Positions 6,425 to 22,665 of a stretch of DNA of 31,051 bases are shown one piece after another. The position numbers and the translations under genes are program-made. The notes beneath the pieces are model-generated. The model made no database searches, was not told where the DNA came from, and worked only from the letters and a program-made list of their open reading frames with translations. Source of the DNA: a virus (lineage: Duplodnaviria > Heunggongvirae > Uroviricota > Caudoviricetes). Where the stretch lies: IMG/VR virus record IMGVR_UViG_2909309443_000003. One strand, 5' to 3'. Position 1 is the first letter of the stretch. The number at the start of each line of letters is the position of its first letter.

Positions 6425-6706
6425 CTATTTGTCAGTGTTGGGCGATGTCTGACACATTGAGACATCAGCAACGGATGCGGGAAATTTTTTGTATAGCGTT
6501 GAGATACCCGAGGCGATCCAGTTTCCAGACCACAAGCGTATCGCCCTCTGACAAGGTTCTGAGTAACCTCTTTAGCCCGGCCAGTCTGATGTTTTGCCGC
6601 TGATTTTATCTTCGAAAATCAGCTCACATCCTGCGCACTCCAGTTCATTTCGCTGTAATGCGGTGTTCTGGTCATTTGTTGATACACGTACATAACCGAT
6701 AAACAT
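6425..6706 (-). pseudogene. Gin/Hin/Pin-type serine DNA invertase remnant (frameshift plus internal deletion)
   Basis: Hand translation of the minus strand: ATG at 6706 gives MFIGYVRVSTNDQNTALQRNELECAGCELIFEDKISGK, then a stop. The GDTLVVWKLDRLG motif continues in another frame, then jumps straight to the C-terminal GISTLYKKFPAS in a third frame. Only about 280 bp remain of an expected 570 bp or so. Confidence 0.8.
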
Positions 6707-6760
6707 GAGAAATAACCCGGTAAAAAGTCGGGATCATGCCAGCTGAACGGAATATCTGCG

Positions 6761-6786
6761 TTTTCTAAAAGGTTGGTTTGGGGGAA
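6761..6786. repeat. hix/gix-like inversion crossover site (right boundary of invertible segment)
   Basis: TTTTCTAAAAGGTTGGTTTGGGGGAA is an inverted copy of 8567-8592 (20/26 identical, 13 of the last 14) and resembles the 26-bp hix/gix sites as I recall them. Confidence 0.7.
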
Positions 6787-7122
6787 TTGGCTCTGGCTGG
6801 CGCAACAACCGGCGCTATGTTGGTGAATGGGTATGTAGCAATTCCATTAATTATTTCTGGCGTTCGGAGACCACTTATTATCCAGTGGGGAGTGGGGCAG
6901 TTTGGGGGAAGTCTGGGGGATGATGCGGGATATTTAAACAATTTCCCTTTCGCTTTTCCGTCGGCGTGCTACGTGATGGTTGCCAGCCACGTGGGGCATA
7001 CACCTTCGGGTGCCGGAATACTATCTGCTTCCGCAATCACAAAAAGCGGCTTTCGTGGTTTTTCCAGCGTAGCGACTGCCGCAAATCCTGTATCGGGCTG
7101 TTATGTTGCTATAGGAGGGTGA
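6769..7122 (+). CDS. alternative tail-fibre C-terminal segment Hv' (silent orientation, no own start)
   Basis: Open frame from 6769 reads KVGLGELALAGATTG..., beginning with the same K-x-L-G-L-G-E junction encoded at the H crossover site; followed by its own assembly gene. Would fuse to the constant part of H after inversion. Confidence 0.65.
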   Translation, partial: KVGLGELALAGATTGAMLVNGYVAIPLIISGVRRPLIIQWGVGQFGGSLGDDAGYLNNFPFAFPSACYVMVASHVGHTPSGAGILSASAITKSGFRGFSSVATAANPVSGCYVAIGG

Positions 7123-7123
7123 T

Positions 7124-7558
7124 GTGTTTTTTAGTCCATCTTTAAATATTTTTGTGAATCCTGCGCTTAAGGATGACTACATCAATGTAAATTCATGGCC
7201 AGATGATGCTGTTGAAGTTGATGAGCAGGTGTATATTGAGTTTTCCGGATTACCGCCGAAAGGAAAAATCCGTATCGCTGGGGAAAATGGTTTTCCTGCA
7301 TGGTCTGAAATTCCACCACCAACGCATGAGGAACAGATTGCCGCAGCCGAATTGAAAAAACAGCAATTGATTAATCAGTCCAACGAATATATGAATACCA
7401 AGCAATGGCCTGGTAAAGCGGCTATTGGTCGTCTGAAAGGTGAGGAACTGGCGCAATATAATTTGTGGCTGGATTATCTGGACGCACTGGAACTGGTTGA
7501 TACCTCCAGTGCTCCAGATATTGAATGGCCTACGCCTCCGGCAGTTCAGGCCAGATGA
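7124..7558 (+). CDS. tail fibre assembly protein, alternative copy (Tfa')
   Basis: 144-aa ORF whose C-terminal motif (LWLDYLDALELVDTSSAPDIEWPTPP) parallels that of the minus-strand gene G; the two converge and overlap at their 3' ends. Confidence 0.75.
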   Translation: MFFSPSLNIFVNPALKDDYINVNSWPDDAVEVDEQVYIEFSGLPPKGKIRIAGENGFPAWSEIPPPTHEEQIAAAELKKQQLINQSNEYMNTKQWPGKAAIGRLKGEELAQYNLWLDYLDALELVDTSSAPDIEWPTPPAVQAR

Positions 7559-8123
7559 CATCCGGCGCGGTGCTCGTATCTGTTGCCGTCACCGCGTCAA
7601 TGTAATCAAGCACGGCGTTAAGCCGGGTGGTTTCTGCCTGCGTCAGCTTCCGCCCGGCCTGTAATTTCAGCTGAATCAGACTGATGGAAGCCATTGCAGC
7701 ATCAATCAGTGACTGGCGCTGTGCTTCTGCCGCTTCTACTGCGGCACCGTGTTGTGCCTCAGTATCTGTCACCCATTTCTCACCATCCCATTTATCATAT
7801 GGCGTTAACGGTGAAAGCGTGACATAACCGTTTTTGATGGCACCGATATAATCCACTGTAACAGCAGCACCATTTTCGATTGAGTAAACAGTCTCATTGC
7901 GATGGTCTTCTTCATGGCTCCATCCCTTACCTGTAAATACTGCCACTCTTCCCGGAATGTTTTCGCCAGGGTCAATACCAGTGGAACAGGCGGGCATACT
8001 TACGCCAGTATTAATATATTCATCAGACCAGCCCGTATACTCAGATGTTTCAGCATCATAATAAAAACAACGCATATCGCCCGGCACTGTAGCCAGCCCA
8101 TTTTCATCAAAAACAGGTTTCAT
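7530..8123 (-). CDS. G: tail fibre assembly protein (P2 gpG family)
   Basis: 197-aa ORF immediately downstream of H; C-terminal AVLDYIDAVTATDTSTAPDVIWPELP motif. Confidence 0.85.
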   Translation of the reverse strand: MKPVFDENGLATVPGDMRCFYYDAETSEYTGWSDEYINTGVSMPACSTGIDPGENIPGRVAVFTGKGWSHEEDHRNETVYSIENGAAVTVDYIGAIKNGYVTLSPLTPYDKWDGEKWVTDTEAQHGAAVEAAEAQRQSLIDAAMASISLIQLKLQAGRKLTQAETTRLNAVLDYIDAVTATDTSTAPDVIWPELPEA

Positions 8124-9187
8124 TATTTAGCCCTCACCAGAAAGTTAAATGCAATATTTCGCGGTCTGACAGCAACAAAATTCACACCATCACCCACAGA
8201 GTTACTGGTGAAATTAAATCGTGAAAATCCTGGCTGATTTCCGGCGATGCCATCATGAAAGTTAATTGCGTGTCCCGCACCTCCGCCTATATTCCCGGCA
8301 AACTGAGAAAAGTTTGTAGCTTCCTGCCAGCTTAATAATTCGCGACCACCATCGGCACCTCGCCCGTCATCCCAGATACGAATGAAATCACCGCGGGCTT
8401 CAGGTAATACCAGTGAAGGAAACACTTTCGCCAGCACAGGGTAATCAGAGGCAGAAAATTTCGCCCCGTTGAACTTCAAAAACACCATACTGGACCAGCT
8501 GTCGATTACAGTATTTGGCATTGCAGCGGACGGCCAGAAGAACGGAACGCCAATAGCTGGAGCACCTTCTCCCAAACCAAGGTTTTTAAGAACGTCGCCG
8601 GCCAGTCCCGCGTCAACCATTTCTTTCAGAGCATTAGCGATTAACGGGTACTGCTTGTGTGGATTGGCGGCCTCAACATGTTTTTTCATCAGGTCATCAG
8701 CATATCCTTTCACCTCGATAATCTTGTCGTCGACATACTGGCGCGTTGCCAGCACGACTGCCGGGTCGATTTTCAGGGTGATTGCCGATGTGCTCGACAC
8801 AATCAGAATCATGCGAATGGTCTGCGTGCGACCGCTTCCCTCCTGCAGTTGTGGCTTGTAGGTCTCCGGACAGTTCGCCACGGCAATCAGAATACCATCA
8901 TCGTCATAGAGACCAATCTCGCGGATCCAGAAACCACCTTCATTCTCGGGAATAATCTGTTCCGCGATAATCTGACTGGTATTGGCCGGGTCAACGGTCA
9001 GCAGGTTCAGCGGCGCGATGCGTTTCTGGTTAATGAGCTTCGTCTGCGCCGGGTCAGGGGTCGGCAACGTACCATTCGCATCACCGACGGCCATCTGCGT
9101 CAGGTTGAGTTTGGTACCGAGTGCCGCCGCGTTCGCCAGCCGCGCCGCGCCCTGATTGGTCAGAATGGCAAAATATTTTGCGGTCAT
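8123..9187 (-). CDS. H: tail fibre protein (P2 gpH family)
   Basis: 354-aa ORF; the N-terminal part (MAVGD..., GGFW.RE.GLYDD.G.LIAVAN, YKP.L.EGSGR, DDKI) matches the conserved P2 H N-terminus; the C-terminal 147 aa lie inside the invertible segment. Confidence 0.85.
   Translation of the reverse strand: MTAKYFAILTNQGAARLANAAALGTKLNLTQMAVGDANGTLPTPDPAQTKLINQKRIAPLNLLTVDPANTSQIIAEQIIPENEGGFWIREIGLYDDDGILIAVANCPETYKPQLQEGSGRTQTIRMILIVSSTSAITLKIDPAVVLATRQYVDDKIIEVKGYADDLMKKHVEAANPHKQYPLIANALKEMVDAGLAGDVLKNLGLGEGAPAIGVPFFWPSAAMPNTVIDSWSSMVFLKFNGAKFSASDYPVLAKVFPSLVLPEARGDFIRIWDDGRGADGGRELLSWQEATNFSQFAGNIGGGAGHAINFHDGIAGNQPGFSRFNFTSNSVGDGVNFVAVRPRNIAFNFLVRAK
8567..8592. repeat. hix/gix-like inversion crossover site inside H (left boundary of invertible segment)
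   Basis: TTCTCCCAAACCAAGGTTTTTAAGAA is close to the hixL consensus as I recall it (TTCTTGAAAACCAAGGTTTTTGATAA). It encodes VLKNLGLGEG of H on the minus strand, at the constant/variable junction. Confidence 0.75.
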
Positions 9188-10699: not shown

Positions 10700-11047
10700 T
10701 TAACTCAGTGAAACAGTGGTTGAAACTGACGCACCGGTATCGGTACGCATCCCGGTAATATCGACATACATTTCGCCAGCGTCGCCGGTCTCAAAGTTGA
10801 TGGAGGTAAGCCTGATGCGCGGCTCCCACTTCTGGATAGCCGAATAGCACGCCACCATAATTTGCAGCCTGAGCGCCGGGTTTTGCGGCATATCAATCAG
10901 CGCCGACAGAAGCGAGCCATATTCACGGCGCATCACCCGCGAGCCGACCGGCGTCAGCAGTATGTCGCGCATGCTCTGGCTGATGTGCTCAGTGTCGCTG
11001 ATGCCGAGGCCGGTATTTCGGTTCATACCCTGATAGCGCGCCGTCAT
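10700..11047 (-). CDS. W: baseplate wedge protein W (gp25-like, P2 gpW family)
   Basis: 115-aa ORF (MTARYQGMNRNTGLGISDTEHISQSMRDILLTPVGSRVMRREYGS...) downstream of V. Confidence 0.85.
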   Translation of the reverse strand: MTARYQGMNRNTGLGISDTEHISQSMRDILLTPVGSRVMRREYGSLLSALIDMPQNPALRLQIMVACYSAIQKWEPRIRLTSINFETGDAGEMYVDITGMRTDTGASVSTTVSLS

Positions 11048-11679
11048 AACGGTGCCCCCGTTTGCCCGCCGCTGTCGCCTGGGTGTTTATGGGTGTGGAG
11101 TACCTTGCCATTAGACGACAGTGACCCGCCGGTATGTTCGATATTGCCGCTCATCTTGCCGCCTTTTTGTACCTCAAGCGTCGCTGTCGTCAGCTTATTG
11201 GTGCAAATCACCTCCGGGGTGTCGAGGGTGATACTGGTCGAGGCTTTCACCAGTACCAGCGGTACGGTTGCAGTGATGGACTCCGATGCCGTCACGTCGG
11301 CAGTTTTGATACCGCTGGCCGTCAGCGCGCCGGCCTCGGGCTCGTACTCAATGACCGCACCATCAGGGAAAGCCACATGCCACGCATCCGCCGAGGCAGA
11401 CGGGGCGGGGTTATCGTCGGAGAAAATACCCGGCAGCACGAAAGCGGTATCAAGCTCGCCACCGATTGCCAGCAGCAGAACCTGCTCACCGACCGAGGGA
11501 GCCCACCACGTCCGCGAACGACCGGCTCGGGTGGTCAGCCAGTTCAGCCATGTAGTCTGGATCCCGCCGCTTTGTACACGGCACAGCCCCTGCACGGTAT
11601 CGACCTCAGTCACCACCCCTGTGCGAATGAGGTTGCGTATTGCACGGGCAAGCTCTTGAATGATATTTGATGTATTCAT
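11044..11679 (-). CDS. V: baseplate spike protein V (P2 gpV family)
   Basis: 211-aa ORF, first gene of the V-W-J-I-H-G block; stop overlaps the W start. Confidence 0.85.
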   Translation of the reverse strand: MNTSNIIQELARAIRNLIRTGVVTEVDTVQGLCRVQSGGIQTTWLNWLTTRAGRSRTWWAPSVGEQVLLLAIGGELDTAFVLPGIFSDDNPAPSASADAWHVAFPDGAVIEYEPEAGALTASGIKTADVTASESITATVPLVLVKASTSITLDTPEVICTNKLTTATLEVQKGGKMSGNIEHTGGSLSSNGKVLHTHKHPGDSGGQTGAPL

Positions 11680-11766
11680 TATGTAAGCATGCCGCTTCTT
11701 TTCATTGCAGACAAAACTTCGGGATTGGAAAGGGGCTCACACAGCAAGACACTTTCAAAGATCTGA

Positions 11767-11794
11767 TTGACACGCATCATTGGGCACGTAAAAA
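11767..11794 (+). promoter_or_regulatory. candidate sigma70 promoter of the cargo gene (TTGACA, 16-bp spacer, TAAAAA)
   Basis: Perfect -35 hexamer TTGACA at 11767-11772 and an AT-rich -10 at 11789-11794, about 40 bp upstream of the ATG at 11833. Confidence 0.5.
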
Positions 11795-11832
11795 TCATCA
11801 ATCCCATTTAATCTGAATGCATTAAAAATAGA

Positions 11833-12708
11833 ATGACTTTTAAATCTTTCGCTGCTGCAGCAATGAACAAAATTGATGCCATAAAACCAATAATACAATC
11901 CTTATGCAAAATGAAGCACGTGTTTATTATTTTTATTTTATATGCATTTGGCGTAACACTTGCCTCTATACACTATGGTAATTACAATGATTCATTCCTG
12001 TCTGGGTTCCTAATAAATGCAAATTCATCCATTTTGGATTTTTTTGTATTAGGTGTCATCCTTTATTGCTTTGAATACAGAAGACAAAACAAAGAAACGA
12101 TTAATGAACTTCTTGAGGATTTGGGAAACTTAGCTAAGCACGTTAATGTTGATTTGAAAATACAAAAAATAAAAATAATAAGACAGCTCAACAATAAAGG
12201 TGTCTTCAATATAGACATACCCAGAATGGAGTTGGGTGACCTTTTTACCATTAAATACTTACACTTTAAAACCTCAGAACTATCTGGGTTAAATATGGAA
12301 AAATCTAACATAAGAGACTGTTCTTTCACTGGATGTACAATCCAGGCATTAAATATTAGCAAGAGCAAAATGAAAAACGTAAAATTTATAAAGTGTAAAA
12401 TAAAAAATATTAAAGCTCAGGATTCAAAGTTAAACGGTGTTATTTTTGAAGGCTGCTATTTATATGGTGGGGATTTTTCCAATGCGGAAATGAAAAGTTG
12501 CGTACTCAGAGAGTGTGATTTGGATAAAGTGGAATACACCAATGCAAACCTTAGAAATGCCAACATAATCGATGCAAAAAATATTGACGTGAACAAACTT
12601 ATAGAAGCTAATACACTAGACTATATAGACTGTGATAGTGAAATAGAAAGACAAATCCTATCATCCAGACCAAACACGAAATTTACTAAACGATATTTAC
12701 GAGGCTAG
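11833..12708 (+). CDS. membrane-anchored pentapeptide-repeat protein (AT-rich cargo gene at the S/V junction)
   Basis: 291-aa ORF, opposite strand to the flanking late genes and visibly AT-rich. Two predicted TM helices (about residues 29-48 and 56-80). Residues about 162-255 form roughly 18 consecutive pentads with a hydrophobic residue at position 4 (NANLR, NANII, ECDLD, SCVLR, GGDFS). Confidence 0.7.
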   Translation: MTFKSFAAAAMNKIDAIKPIIQSLCKMKHVFIIFILYAFGVTLASIHYGNYNDSFLSGFLINANSSILDFFVLGVILYCFEYRRQNKETINELLEDLGNLAKHVNVDLKIQKIKIIRQLNNKGVFNIDIPRMELGDLFTIKYLHFKTSELSGLNMEKSNIRDCSFTGCTIQALNISKSKMKNVKFIKCKIKNIKAQDSKLNGVIFEGCYLYGGDFSNAEMKSCVLRECDLDKVEYTNANLRNANIIDAKNIDVNKLIEANTLDYIDCDSEIERQILSSRPNTKFTKRYLRG

Positions 12709-12747
12709 GGAATCGAACCACTAAAGAAAGATTAAAATCTTCCTTGA

Positions 12748-12773
12748 CGCCAGTCGCACTCTATTGACTGGCG
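12748..12773. terminator. hairpin between convergent cargo gene and S (possible bidirectional terminator)
   Basis: CGCCAGTC, a 10-nt loop, then GACTGGCG (8-bp stem, extendable to 9-10). No strong U-tract on either strand, so terminator function is uncertain. Confidence 0.3.
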
Positions 12774-12825
12774 TTAGGGTGCACTCTAGTTGTCAAATTG
12801 TCAAGAGTTAGCATGCTTTTGTTAA

Positions 12826-13281
12826 TTAACCATTTCTAATAGCTCCGATTATTAGCTTCTCAACAAGCAGTTCATCGTCCCGGGTGAAACCGAACAACGG
12901 GCGTGCCTCGTACTGCACATCCCGGCTGTTGCGGTTTGGCCGGTCTTTGAGGCCGTACTGATGCACCCGCGCCATGCGCTGTACCTTGTCGGTAAACTCC
13001 ACCACTGCCGCACTGTCGCTGCCTTTGGCTTTCATAAAGCGGTTAGTGCTGCGCAGTTTGGCGAACATTTCGCGCCTGATACGGCCTCTCTTGCTCCGCA
13101 CCGGCTGGCGCTTTCTGGCGGCATACGGGGTGCCGTCAGGTGCCTGCTGGCGCTTAATGCGCTGTTGCTGACTGGCGCGCAGTTTTTTTGCAATGTCAGC
13201 CGCCATTTGCCGACGCGCCGCCGGTGACAGGCTGGCAATCAGACCGGCAAGACGTTCCTGTAGCGCGGTTAACTCACTCAT
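12826..13281 (-). CDS. S: tail completion protein S (P2 gpS family)
   Basis: 151-aa ORF downstream of R, last gene of the R-S block. Confidence 0.85.
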   Translation of the reverse strand: MSELTALQERLAGLIASLSPAARRQMAADIAKKLRASQQQRIKRQQAPDGTPYAARKRQPVRSKRGRIRREMFAKLRSTNRFMKAKGSDSAAVVEFTDKVQRMARVHQYGLKDRPNRNSRDVQYEARPLFGFTRDDELLVEKLIIGAIRNG

Positions 13282-21660: not shown

Positions 21661-22665
21661 ATGGGCGCGGAGATTAATATTTTGGAAACTGATTTTAAAA
21701 TAACCCTCGAAGGTTTCGCTACTGAGCAAGAAGCAAATAATATCGGTAATTTCACACTAGAAGCTATCCGAGCTTTAACAAAGAATCTCAATCTTGATAT
21801 CTCCAAATTAAAATGCGTGATTGTTTCCTATAACTTCAGTGAAGCTCTTCAAAAGGTAACATCCTCTTACCAACACAAATCCCCTAGTTCATTTACCAAT
21901 AGCAAACAGGGCGCAGCCGTCGGGCAGTTAGTAACAAAAATTGGCAATGATGGGCTATATGAAGAATATACCCTTGTGCTATCGATTGATTTTTTTGTTG
22001 AGCTTTTCAATGATGGTAGCTTCTTAAAACTGAAAGAAGAAGGATACCTCGCAGTCATCCATCGCATTCACCATGAATTAGTGCACGTACATGAAAAAAA
22101 CTTACTAACATGCTTAGCCCAAAACTTTACAGTCAACGAGTATGGTAGCGCGCTTCTTATCTCAGCCACGCGTGCATGGTCTGAATATCTCGCTAATTAC
22201 ATGTCTTCGGGGTCTGCCCCTCAAGAAACTGTCGATTTATTTTTAGAGAATCTTGACACTGTTGTAAATGAAGTATCTGACGAGATTGAAAAACTCATCT
22301 GGGGTTATAAGTACGGTAATATTTCTCTGAATGACATGTATCTTGAAGTAAAAAAACGTATCAGGCTAATCATCAACTCTTATGCTTATGCGATGGGTTA
22401 TGTCCATTCTCTAAACATCAATATTAAAGAATACGATCCAAAGCTATCCCTTACACTATCCAACTCAAAGATAAGATATCAATTATCAGAATTAGGCATT
22501 GCTTTTCAGAATCTTTATGGGAAGTTTAATGACCAGCACATTACAGGTTTTGGTGATTTTCGGGAGATAACAATAATCATTGATGAAATATTCAAGCAGT
22601 TTGGGCTTGTTTTAGAGTGTCCCGATTGGTCTGGCGACGGTGAACTCTACATACATGTAAATTAG
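21661..22665 (+). CDS. HExxH-motif protein of unknown function (AT-rich cargo gene between Q and cos)
   Basis: 334-aa ORF, AT-rich relative to its flanks, with no TM segment or signal peptide. His-rich motif HHELVHVHE at residues 137-145 contains HExxH. Occupies the phage-end cargo position next to cos. Confidence 0.7.
   Translation: MGAEINILETDFKITLEGFATEQEANNIGNFTLEAIRALTKNLNLDISKLKCVIVSYNFSEALQKVTSSYQHKSPSSFTNSKQGAAVGQLVTKIGNDGLYEEYTLVLSIDFFVELFNDGSFLKLKEEGYLAVIHRIHHELVHVHEKNLLTCLAQNFTVNEYGSALLISATRAWSEYLANYMSSGSAPQETVDLFLENLDTVVNEVSDEIEKLIWGYKYGNISLNDMYLEVKKRIRLIINSYAYAMGYVHSLNINIKEYDPKLSLTLSNSKIRYQLSELGIAFQNLYGKFNDQHITGFGDFREITIIIDEIFKQFGLVLECPDWSGDGELYIHVN

What the first reader, a model, noticed from the sequence alone, without database searches (positions are those of the whole stretch)
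11767..12782. AT-rich cargo gene at the S/V junction encodes a membrane-anchored pentapeptide-repeat protein
A 291-aa ORF sits on the opposite strand between tail genes S and V. It is visibly AT-rich against the GC-rich backbone and has its own perfect -35 hexamer (TTGACA). The product has two N-terminal TM helices and then about 18 consecutive pentads with the A(D/N)(L/F)xx periodicity of pentapeptide-repeat proteins. Soluble members of that family (Qnr, MfpA) mimic DNA. A membrane-tethered version expressed from a prophage is a plausible superinfection-exclusion or abortive-infection effector, and I know of no described defence system of this architecture. P2 carries an unrelated nonessential ORF (orf30, from memory) at the same position.
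Basis: partly seen in the sequence, partly recalled or inferred. Interest (0 to 1): 0.8.

Follow-up and report, generated by a model that had tools for sequence, protein, structure and literature searches.

The report
Prophage membrane pentapeptide protein with tRNA-like partner
An E. coli P2-like prophage carries, between tail genes S and V, an AT-rich insert that encodes an uncharacterised inner-membrane pentapeptide-repeat protein and, on the opposite strand, a conserved tRNA-like element; this is probably a new kind of phage-exclusion module, but nothing about its function has been tested.

Summary
A 291-aa ORF (11833-12708, +) lies in a 1.08-kb insert of GC 0.33 between gpV and gpS, on the opposite strand. 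It encodes two N-terminal TM helices, a helical linker and about 23 in-register pentads that model as a confident quadrilateral beta-helix.

- The family keeps this site. All 11 members checked at 31-65% identity, from seven genera of Enterobacterales, sit alone at the S/V junction of P2-like prophages. Most related phages have an empty 66-bp junction, and others carry unrelated AT-rich cargo, including PD-T4-7-like and PDC-S15-like genes.
- TM2 is the most conserved part (85% pairwise identity, against 57% for the repeats). It has a polar N/S/S/D face, so it is more than an anchor. The repeat domain is about neutral in charge and so is not an acidic DNA mimic.
- A convergent tRNA-like cloverleaf with its own promoter-like site overlaps the stop codon. 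It is conserved, with compensatory changes, in every Enterobacterales locus examined.

The closest described system is Hailong HalA (pentapeptide repeats plus an ion channel, gated by DNA), but the HalA membership tests fail. A defence role is inferred from context only.

The parts
11044..11679 (-). Left flank: baseplate spike gene V
   Evidence: Pfam Phage_base_V 5e-19, Phage_spike 3e-29, Apex.
11680..11745 (-). Retained 66-bp S/V junction (region upstream of V)
   Evidence: Aligns end to end with the 66-bp junction of cargo-free relatives. The same 66 bp is kept next to V in all cargo-bearing loci compared, so the cargo lies between it and the S stop codon.
11746..12825 (.). AT-rich cargo insert
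   Evidence: GC 0.33, against 0.47 for the 66-bp junction and 0.53-0.64 for the backbone. Absent from about 60 of 79 related IMG/VR loci.
11767..11795 (+). Promoter-like site of the pentapeptide-repeat gene (-35 TTGACA, 17 nt, -10 AAAAAT)
   Evidence: Matches 10 of 12. It lies inside the cargo. An exact TTGAC[AT] is at the same place (88-97 nt from the V start) in L002, L003 and L006.
11833..12708 (+). ORF for the membrane pentapeptide-repeat protein (291 aa; alternative conserved start Met27 at 11911)
   Evidence: Exact match to WP_134881175.1 of E. coli. Full-length match to phrog_12514, function unknown, 1.6e-158.
11914..11976 (+). TM1 (aa 28-48), variable
   Evidence: Hydropathy; helix 28-47 in the model; 44% mean pairwise identity.
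11995..12075 (+). TM2 (aa 55-81) with the near-invariant motif FLxNANSSILDFxxLGVxLYxFE
   Evidence: 85% mean pairwise identity, the highest of any region. N62, N64, S65, S66 and D69 are invariant or nearly so.
12076..12198 (+). Basic juxtamembrane helices (aa 82-122), predicted to be cytoplasmic
   Evidence: Helices 90-100 and 106-121; 73% identity; net charge +1 to +4. A profile of TM1 to linker finds 154 representative proteins, and 103 of the 104 tested carry pentapeptide repeats.
12205..12642 (+). Pentapeptide-repeat beta-helix (aa 125-270)
12693..12770 (-). tRNA-like cloverleaf, convergent with the ORF and overlapping its last codons and stop codon (invariant GGTTCGATTCC = + strand 12709-12719)
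   Evidence: Hit by covariance model R1 at E=1.8e-8 in the window and in all other Enterobacterales family loci searched, and in none of the loci with other cargo. 88% of cells are paired, against 72 +/- 1.7% in shuffles and 41-55% when the partners are slid; 17 of 22 pairs change on both sides. ARAGORN and Rfam do not call it a tRNA; there is a sub-threshold tRNA-Sec layout match in L002.
12776..12825 (-). Promoter-like sites upstream of the tRNA-like element (TTGACA-17-CACCCT at 12804..12776; TTAACA-17-GACAAT at 12825..12797)
   Evidence: By script, TTGACT + 17 nt + an xAxxxT hexamer ends 3-5 nt before the model start in L002, L003, L006, L009, L010, L011 and the non-P2 locus L100. By eye in the printed upstream sequences, a TTGAC[AT] lies at a similar distance in the window and the other four loci.
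12826..13281 (-). Right flank: tail completion gene S
   Evidence: Pfam Phage_tail_S 9.8e-33.

Best explanation
The insert is a self-contained accessory ('moron') module at the variable orf30 position of a P2/186-like E. coli prophage. It has two convergent transcription units.

1. From its own sigma-70-type promoter it makes an inner-membrane protein. A TM hairpin has both ends in the cytoplasm. A short periplasmic loop is followed by TM2, which carries a conserved polar N62/S65/S66/D69 face. A basic helical linker then leads to a cytoplasmic pentapeptide-repeat beta-helix of about 5.5 coils.

2. From the other strand it makes a small tRNA-like RNA that overlaps the 3' end of the protein gene.

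My best reading is that this is a phage-exclusion or abortive-infection module that follows the logic of Hailong HalA. The variable-surfaced repeat domain would be the cytoplasmic sensor or ligand-binding platform. The highly conserved TM2 hairpin, as an oligomer, would be the effector that perturbs the membrane. The tRNA-like RNA would hold the system in check, either by antisense control of the mRNA or as a bound ligand.

Shown: the anatomy, the fold, the conservation pattern, the site fidelity, the presence/absence polymorphism, the co-occurrence of the tRNA-like element and its covariation.

Inferred: the topology (positive-inside rule), expression in the lysogen, oligomerisation, membrane perturbation, the role of the RNA, and the anti-phage function itself.
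For: Position and mobility:
- The gene sits on the strand opposite the late operon, with its own promoter-like site inside an AT-rich insert.
- The S/V junction is polymorphic. About 60 of 79 related loci have a bare 66-bp junction. The other 19 carry 0.9-1.5 kb of AT-rich cargo, mostly on the opposite strand, from 11 unrelated protein families (the pentapeptide family and ten others). These include a PD-T4-7-like protein (PADLOC 1e-10) and an FRG/PDC-S15 protein (7e-38).
- All 11 homologues checked at 31-65% identity (P0002, P0005, P0009, P0010, P0022, P0026-P0029 and the phage allele in L002) are at this junction.
- Their identity does not track that of the flanks. In L002 gpV is 97.6% identical but the protein only 52%; in L003 gpV is 81.6% and the protein 65%.
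- More distant members lie next to integrases or recombinases.

Protein:
- TM2 is 85% and the linker 73% identical on average, against 57% for the repeats and 44% for TM1.
- Outward-facing pentad positions are the variable ones (entropy 1.4-1.6, against 0.65 for the inward ones).
- The N-terminal module is almost always fused to pentapeptide repeats (103 of 104).
- Hailong systems occur in P4 hotspots, and HalA there is described as pentapeptide repeats plus an IRK channel domain.

RNA partner.
Against: - There is no experiment of any kind.
- PADLOC has no hit, and no paper found describes this family.
- The TM module has no detectable homology to any channel. Its model confidence is only 56-70 pLDDT.
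- HalA needs HalB. No nucleotidyltransferase is seen in the insert or in the portal-gpA hotspot of this prophage.
- Conserved polar TM residues could instead serve in binding a host membrane protein.
- The covariation counts come from an alignment fitted to the model. It holds 4 training sequences, one probably spurious hit and one partial hit.
- The tRNA-like element could be a relic of an integration site (PMC8022706 describes tRNA-like attP genes just downstream of int, which is the arrangement seen in L100).
- The alleles are rare: 4 and 14 of 5426 complete E. coli genomes.
Confidence: 0.38

Rival explanations
1. Superinfection exclusion without cell death. The inner-membrane protein would block genome entry of incoming phages, for example by binding an ejection or tape-measure protein or a host inner-membrane entry factor. 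Known examples are HK97 gp15, P22 SieA and T4 Imm (from my own knowledge of those systems).
For: The protein is predicted to sit in the inner membrane with a very short periplasmic loop. It would be expressed from a prophage and lies inside the tail gene cluster, like the HK97 gp15 moron. The conserved TM2 face could be a protein-protein interface.
Against: Most of the conserved mass is cytoplasmic: linker plus beta-helix, about 190 aa. Known entry blockers are small and have no such domain. A conserved RNA partner is not expected for this kind of protein.
Confidence: 0.2
2. A lysogenic-conversion or host-physiology gene unrelated to phages, such as a membrane regulator or ion-homeostasis factor. 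The tRNA-like element would be only a decayed tRNA or att-site footprint carried along with it.
For: The wider family of 2 TM + linker + pentapeptide repeats has 154 representative clusters, mostly from metagenomes, and at least one member lies next to a housekeeping gene. tRNA-like sequences mark integration sites (PMC8022706). In L100 the element lies just downstream of an integrase gene.
Against: A relic would not keep four helices through compensatory changes, nor keep a promoter-like site at a fixed distance, across loci whose proteins are only 31-65% identical. The subfamily with the NANSSILDF motif was found only on mobile elements.
Confidence: 0.17
3. A toxin-antitoxin-like addiction module, type I or type III in style. 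The membrane protein would be a toxin and the convergent tRNA-like RNA its antitoxin, and the pair would stabilise the cargo or the prophage rather than defend the cell.
For: The arrangement is convergent and overlaps at the 3' end, with two separate promoter-like sites. The product is membrane-active in principle. The protein and the RNA always occur together.
Against: Type I toxins are peptides of fewer than about 60 aa (my own knowledge), whereas this protein is 265-291 aa with a large soluble domain. No toxicity data exist. This reading also overlaps with the best explanation, because many such modules act as abortive-infection systems.
Confidence: 0.12
4. A Qnr/MfpA/AlbG-type DNA mimic that protects gyrase or topoisomerase (the analogy the first reader drew), or a phage anti-defence protein such as the pentapeptide-repeat protein 24_60 of a Vibrio phage that counters the Sucellos system.
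Against: The net charge of the repeat domain is -2 to +4, not acidic. It scores 38 bits against the Qnr equivalog cut-off of 240 and 28 against 360 for MfpA. It has an obligate membrane module with a conserved TM2. It is placed on the strand opposite the late genes, as expected for a gene expressed from the prophage.
Confidence: 0.06

Closest known systems
Hailong effector HalA (PDB 9nyi; NCBIfam NF051894; Tan et al., Nature 2025, cited through PMC13276650 and PMC13586616)
   Different: The score is 41 bits against a cut-off of 250. In HalA the repeats are N-terminal (our aa 96-199 align to profile positions 24-128 of 338; our 160-237 align to chain residues 82-154), whereas here they are C-terminal. 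There is no IRK or Ion_trans_2 match and no HalB nucleotidyltransferase. The candidate nucleic-acid partner here is a tRNA-like RNA encoded in cis, not enzymatically made oligo-dA.
Variable orf30 locus of P2-like phages (S/V junction)
   Same: Same position. The literature lists it, with the Z/fun and TO regions, as one of three sites where horizontally acquired genes replace P2 genes (PMC3091744). Phage R18C carries a different 741-bp ORF there (PMC6823313).
   Different: P2 orf30 is a 261-bp ORF. The large hotspot surveys concentrate on the gpA-portal, Z/fun and int-proximal sites and do not describe this family.
Qnr / MfpA / AlbG / McbG soluble pentapeptide-repeat proteins
   Different: Those proteins are soluble, acidic dimers that mimic DNA. 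This one is membrane-anchored and about neutral, and it falls far below their family cut-offs.
Prophage morons for superinfection exclusion inside tail gene clusters (e.g. HK97 gp15), and type I toxin-antitoxin pairs with 3'-overlapping antisense RNAs (e.g. B. subtilis txpA/ratA, bsrG/SR4); both from my own knowledge
   Same: A membrane protein expressed from its own promoter within late genes, and a convergent small RNA that overlaps the 3' end of a membrane-protein gene.
   Different: No sequence relationship was detected. This protein is far larger and has a beta-helix domain, and the RNA is shaped like a tRNA.

Membership tests
Pentapeptide repeat family (Pfam PF00805/PF13599) | Tandem pentads scoring above the curated cut-off | tested here: met
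   PF13599 scores 68.9 bits (cut-off 38) and PF00805 47.9 bits (cut-off 20.2). About 23 pentads are in register from aa 136 to 250.
Pentapeptide repeat family (Pfam PF00805/PF13599) | Right-handed quadrilateral beta-helix fold | tested here: met
Hailong HalA | Score at or above the NCBIfam equivalog cut-off (250 bits) | tested here: not met
   41.4 bits, E=1e-10, partial match covering aa 96-199.
Hailong HalA | Ion-channel (IRK / Ion_trans_2-type) transmembrane domain | tested here: not met
Hailong HalA | Adjacent HalB nucleotidyltransferase gene | tested here: not met
   This is the only conserved ORF in the insert. The neighbours are gpV and gpS in all 11 family loci at this junction. The other hotspot cargo of this prophage has no Pfam or PADLOC hit.
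Hailong HalA | Tetrameric channel gated by bound oligonucleotide; membrane depolarisation on release | not testable with these tools
   Needs multimer modelling or biochemistry.
Qnr/MfpA-type DNA mimics | Family score above cut-off; soluble protein with an acidic surface | tested here: not met
   Qnr 38 bits against 240; MfpA 28.5 against 360. Net charge of the repeat domain is -2 to +4. Two TM helices are present.
P2 orf30-locus cargo (moron) | Lies between S and V, has atypical composition, shows presence/absence polymorphism, and has its own promoter | tested here: met
   The promoter is a consensus match only.
Known anti-phage defence systems (PADLOC-DB v2.0.0) | Match to any model | tested here: not met
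   0 families at E<=1.
tRNA / tmRNA genes (for the convergent element) | Called by ARAGORN, or reaches the Rfam tRNA gathering score | tested here: not met
   ARAGORN finds none in the window or in 10 loci. Rfam gives nothing in the window. In L002 tRNA-Sec scores 14 bits against 47, E=2.1.
tRNA-like structured RNA (for the convergent element) | Four-helix cloverleaf kept through compensatory changes, with a T-loop motif | tested here: met
   88.4% of cells paired; 17 of 22 pairs change on both sides; 0 of 500 shuffles reach the observed values; slid controls give 41-55%. GGTTC(G/A)ATTCC is invariant in 13 loci. Caveat: the alignment was fitted to the model and the sample is small.

The most novel reading that the evidence does not exclude
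The module would be a new class of nucleic-acid-gated membrane effector. The prophage-encoded tRNA-like RNA would bind the cytoplasmic pentapeptide-repeat domain and keep an oligomeric TM2 pore closed. Phage activities that degrade, modify or sequester tRNA-like RNA (or stop its synthesis) would release the effector and abort infection. This would be an RNA counterpart of DNA-gated Hailong, encoded in about 1 kb and exchanged as a cassette at the S/V junction of P2-like phages.
Probability: 0.1. Interest if true: 0.85.

Novelty: new variant of a known kind. Interest (0 to 1): 0.64.

Why it matters
If the module is anti-phage, three things follow. It would add a compact system to the defence repertoire that PADLOC v2.0.0 has no model for. 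It would mark the S/V (orf30) junction as a further defence hotspot of P2-like phages, one the large surveys have not explored. It would also extend the Hailong principle, a repeat-domain sensor coupled to a membrane effector and held by a nucleic acid, to a different architecture with a possible RNA ligand.

Even without a defence role, two features are unusual and easy to test. A protein gene and a tRNA-like element stay associated across proteins only 24-65% identical. And one transmembrane helix is the most conserved part of the protein.

Tried and rejected
- PADLOC, PHROGs and NCBIfam gave no functional name. phrog_12514 is 'unknown function', and the NCBIfam matches are all far below their cut-offs.
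- Sequence search of the N-terminal module against the PDB found nothing.
- Foldseek against the PDB and BFVD returned only generic beta-helix proteins (pentapeptide-repeat proteins, designed solenoids, tailspikes). None suggests a virion or assembly role for this protein.
- The Hailong paper itself is not in the library. HalA's domain order is therefore inferred from alignment coordinates.
- I looked for a HalB-like partner in the insert and in the portal-gpA hotspot and found none.
- I considered the hairpin at 12746-12775 as an intrinsic terminator. No T-run follows it, and the terminator scan did not call it. It is better explained as part of the tRNA-like element.
- Plain MAFFT plus RNAalifold on the 13 divergent elements recovered only the T-arm. 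A covariance model was needed to align them.
- I tried to assign the element to a specific tRNA by eye and failed. Only a sub-threshold tRNA-Sec-like layout emerged.
- The supplements of the 2026 NAR P2/P4 paper are not held.
- Names for distant family members were mostly unavailable because they are metagenome singletons.
Full report
**1. What is there**

The window is an E. coli P2/186-like prophage. It is 99.9% identical over the finding to four complete E. coli genomes, and in strain JKHS016 the prophage lies next to rplS.

Between baseplate gene V (11044-11679, -) and tail-completion gene S (12826-13281, -) lies a 291-aa ORF on the + strand at 11833-12708. GC falls from 0.55-0.64 to 0.30-0.32 across it.

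The first 66 bp next to V (11680-11745) align end to end with the complete 66-bp S/V junction of related phages that have no insert. The acquired DNA is therefore 11746-12825 (GC 0.33), placed between that junction and the S stop codon.

A -35 TTGACA / 17 nt / AAAAAT site at 11767-11795 lies inside the insert. The promoter scan as a whole is not above chance. An exact TTGAC[AT] recurs at the same distance from V in L002, L003 and L006; L010 has TTAACT there.

**2. The protein**

Pfam gives Pentapeptide_4 (3.9e-19) and Pentapeptide (9e-13), both above their cut-offs. Hydropathy shows two hydrophobic segments, aa 30-48 and 55-81. From aa 136 to 250 there are about 23 pentads in one register.

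An AlphaFold2 model built on 24 homologues (mean pLDDT 79) has:
- helices at 28-47 and 55-87;
- two further helices at 90-100 and 106-121;
- a beta-helix at 125-270 with pLDDT 90-96 over most of its length.

Topology is inferred from charge. K/R residues lie before TM1 and straight after TM2 (R83, R84, K87), and none lie in the loop at aa 48-54. Both ends, and so the repeat domain, should be cytoplasmic. Seven conserved cysteines in the domain fit that.

The repeat domain has net charge -2 to +4 across the family. It does not look like the acidic DNA mimics.

The start codon is uncertain. Met27 is invariant and is the annotated start of several homologues.

**3. The family and where it lives**

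A search of 5.8 billion proteins found 23 clusters at 47-96% identity, all from Enterobacterales. A profile of the N-terminal module alone (TM1 to linker) was then searched against 1.84 billion representatives. It found 154 proteins of about 250-330 aa, and 103 of the 104 tested carry pentapeptide repeats. The membrane module and the repeats are therefore an obligate pair.

I looked up the genomic context of eleven members at 31-65% identity. They come from Escherichia, Enterobacter, Klebsiella, Edwardsiella, Yersinia, Citrobacter and Serratia. Every one sits alone, on the opposite strand, between gpV and gpS of a P2-like prophage.

Identity of the protein does not track identity of the flanks:

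| Locus | gpV | gpS | Protein |
|---|---|---|---|
| L002 | 97.6% | 85.8% | 52% |
| L003 | 81.6% | 61.6% | 65% |

This fits exchange of the insert as a cassette between phages.

More distant members lie elsewhere:
- between yebY and an integrase gene (Serratia, about 31% identity in the alignment);
- beside a trio of tyrosine recombinases (Vibrio, 24%);
- once next to pyruvate kinase, on a short contig.

The two E. coli alleles are rare, in 4 and 14 of 5426 complete genomes.

**4. The S/V junction as a variable site**

I took 79 IMG/VR loci with gpS 85-92% identical to the window's. About 60 have the bare 66-bp junction. The other 19 carry 0.9-1.5 kb of cargo at GC 0.32-0.39 (backbone 0.52-0.56), nearly always on the opposite strand.

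Besides the pentapeptide family (4 loci), the cargo falls into ten unrelated protein families:
- a HIT-like protein;
- a UPF0489 protein;
- several predicted membrane or lipoproteins;
- a relative of PD-T4-7 (PADLOC 1e-10);
- an FRG-domain relative of PDC-S15 (7e-38).

PD-T4-7 is an experimentally validated abortive-infection system (PMC9519451).

The literature already lists the orf30 position as one of three sites of horizontal acquisition in P2-like phages (PMC3091744, PMC6823313). The large hotspot studies deal with other sites and do not mention this family.

**5. Conservation pattern**

Mean pairwise identity by region:

| Region | Identity |
|---|---|
| N-terminal extension | 30% |
| TM1 | 44% |
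| TM2 | 85% |
| Juxtamembrane helices | 73% |
| Repeats | 57% |
| C-terminal tail | 34% |

TM2 carries the near-invariant motif FLxNANSSILDFxxLGVxLYxFE. At 100 degrees per residue, N62, S65, S66 and D69 fall within one arc of about 100 degrees in the half of the helix nearer the periplasm. This is read directly from the sequence.

Within the repeats, the inward-facing positions are conserved (entropy about 0.65) and the outward-facing ones are variable (1.4-1.6).

A simple anchor would not be the best-conserved part of a protein. The pattern fits a conserved membrane effector, or interaction helix, joined to a diversifying cytoplasmic surface.

**6. A second component: the tRNA-like element**

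Immediately at the stop codon, every Enterobacterales family locus has the sequence (T/C)AGGGAATCGAACC on the + strand. On the - strand this reads GGTTCGATTCCC, a T-loop and stem.
- The 31-40% homologues L104 and L106 have GGTTCAATTCC, with matching changes in the stem.
- In the Vibrio homologue the motif lies inside the coding region, where the protein reads ...RGIEPP....
- The motif is absent from all other cargo types at the junction.

I built a covariance model from four loci with a four-helix cloverleaf: an acceptor-like stem, a GAC-UGGU-GUC arm, a hairpin of variable sequence, and the T-arm. Its hits were:

| Locus | E-value |
|---|---|
| window 12693-12770 (-) | 1.8e-8 |
| L003 | 7e-8 |
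| L011 | 2e-6 |
| L100 (not a P2 locus) | 1e-5 |
| L106 | 1e-3 |
| L093 | 3e-3 |
| L096 | 0.03 |
| L104 | 0.35 |

Each hit lies at the 3' end of the protein gene. None of the 12 loci with other cargo or an empty junction was hit.

On the resulting alignment, 88.4% of cells pair, against 71.6 +/- 1.7% in shuffles and 41-55% when the partners are slid. Seventeen of the 22 pairs show changes on both sides. Several pairs are G-U on the - strand, which would be A-C mismatches on the + strand. The - strand is therefore the folded one.

Caveats: the alignment is fitted to the model, four rows are training sequences, one hit (L093 635-719) is probably spurious, and one (L102) is partial.

Existing tools do not recognise the element as a tRNA.
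- ARAGORN and Rfam do not call it.
- In L002 the tRNA-Sec model aligns over its full length at a sub-threshold score (14 bits, E=2.1). That alignment includes the 4-nt UGGU D-loop.

There is also a promoter-like site. A script found TTGACT, 17 nt and an xAxxxT hexamer ending 3-5 nt before the model's first position in L002, L003, L006, L009, L010, L011 and L100. By eye, a TTGAC[AT] lies at a similar distance in the window and the other four loci. In the window the site is TTGACA-17-CACCCT at 12804-12776, with a second candidate TTAACA-17-GACAAT at 12825-12797.

The insert therefore looks like two convergent units whose 3' ends overlap.

**7. Mechanism**

None of this has been tested. The best-supported reading is a prophage-expressed exclusion or abortive-infection module. 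Its cytoplasmic repeat domain would sense or bind something, its conserved TM2 hairpin would act on the membrane, and the tRNA-like RNA would restrain it, either by antisense control or by direct binding.

The nearest described system is Hailong. HalA joins pentapeptide repeats to an ion channel and is held closed by oligo-dA made by HalB. It depolarises the cell when phage nucleases remove the DNA (PMC13276650). Hailong also occurs in P4 hotspots.

Membership in HalA fails on every feature I could test:
- 41 bits against a cut-off of 250;
- repeats at the opposite end of the protein;
- no channel-domain homology;
- no HalB.

The claim is therefore 'may work like', not 'is'.

The rivals are:
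- an entry-blocking exclusion protein;
- a function unrelated to phages, with the RNA as an att-site relic (the arrangement in L100 resembles the tRNA-like attP genes just downstream of int; PMC8022706);
- a toxin-antitoxin-like addiction module;
- a Qnr-like or anti-defence role, which is much less likely.

**8. Novelty and verdict**

The family is uncharacterised. It is phrog_12514, 'unknown function', has no PADLOC model, and no paper was found on it. Its components are known kinds: a moron at a known variable locus, and pentapeptide repeats joined to a membrane module as in HalA. I therefore rate it a new variant of a known kind.

The conserved tRNA-like partner and the highly conserved TM2 make it a good experimental target.

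Noticed in passing
window 12693-12825 (- strand); also L002 6798-6873, L100 3954-4033 and nine other loci: A conserved tRNA-like cloverleaf with an invariant GGTTCGATTCC T-loop overlaps the stop codon of the pentapeptide-repeat gene on the opposite strand. A TTGAC[AT] promoter-like site precedes it. It accompanies the gene even outside P2 prophages and is absent from other S/V cargo. ARAGORN and Rfam do not call it a tRNA.
   Followed up: yes
window 21661-22665 (+), plus small ORFs up to about 23770: The canonical P2 defence hotspot, between the portal gene and the replication gene A, holds a 334-aa ORF and several small ORFs with no Pfam or PADLOC match. RefSeq annotates them as hypothetical proteins. 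This is a second piece of uncharacterised cargo in the same prophage.
   Followed up: partly
IMG/VR loci L044, L059, L060, L062, L067, L069, L072, L074, L089, L091 (S/V junctions): Ten other unrelated AT-rich cargo families occupy the same S/V junction in related phages. They include a PD-T4-7-like protein (L069, L071), an FRG/PDC-S15-like protein (L074), a HIT-like protein with a second ORF (L044), UPF0489 (L062-L064) and several predicted membrane proteins. The junction behaves as a small hotspot that the surveys have not explored.
   Followed up: partly
window about 6500-8230 (from L001 9828-11550, offset 3321): RefSeq annotates a frameshifted partial recombinase (invertase) gene, a partial tail-fibre gene and two oppositely oriented tail-fibre assembly genes next to gene H. 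This looks like the remnant of an invertible tail-fibre switch at the Z/fun position.
   Followed up: no
L009 5008-5060 (Enterobacter cloacae CP009756): The 14-nt unit GGAATCGAGGTTAG is repeated three times in tandem, and a fourth partial copy runs into the T-loop motif GGAATCGAACCC at the 3' end of the homologue's ORF. This is a local duplication of the ORF end and the 3' strand of the tRNA-like element.
   Followed up: no
L100 3121-5051 (Serratia-like metagenome contig): A 31%-identical family member with its tRNA-like element lies between chromosomal yebY and an integrase gene. The element is just downstream of int, which is the arrangement of tRNA-like attP genes. The element may therefore serve as, or derive from, an attachment site.
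   Followed up: partly
window 11833-11913: The start codon is ambiguous. Met27 is invariant in the family and is the annotated start of several homologues. Database entries of 281 and 262 aa exist for the same E. coli protein, and no clear Shine-Dalgarno sequence precedes any of the three ATGs.
   Followed up: partly
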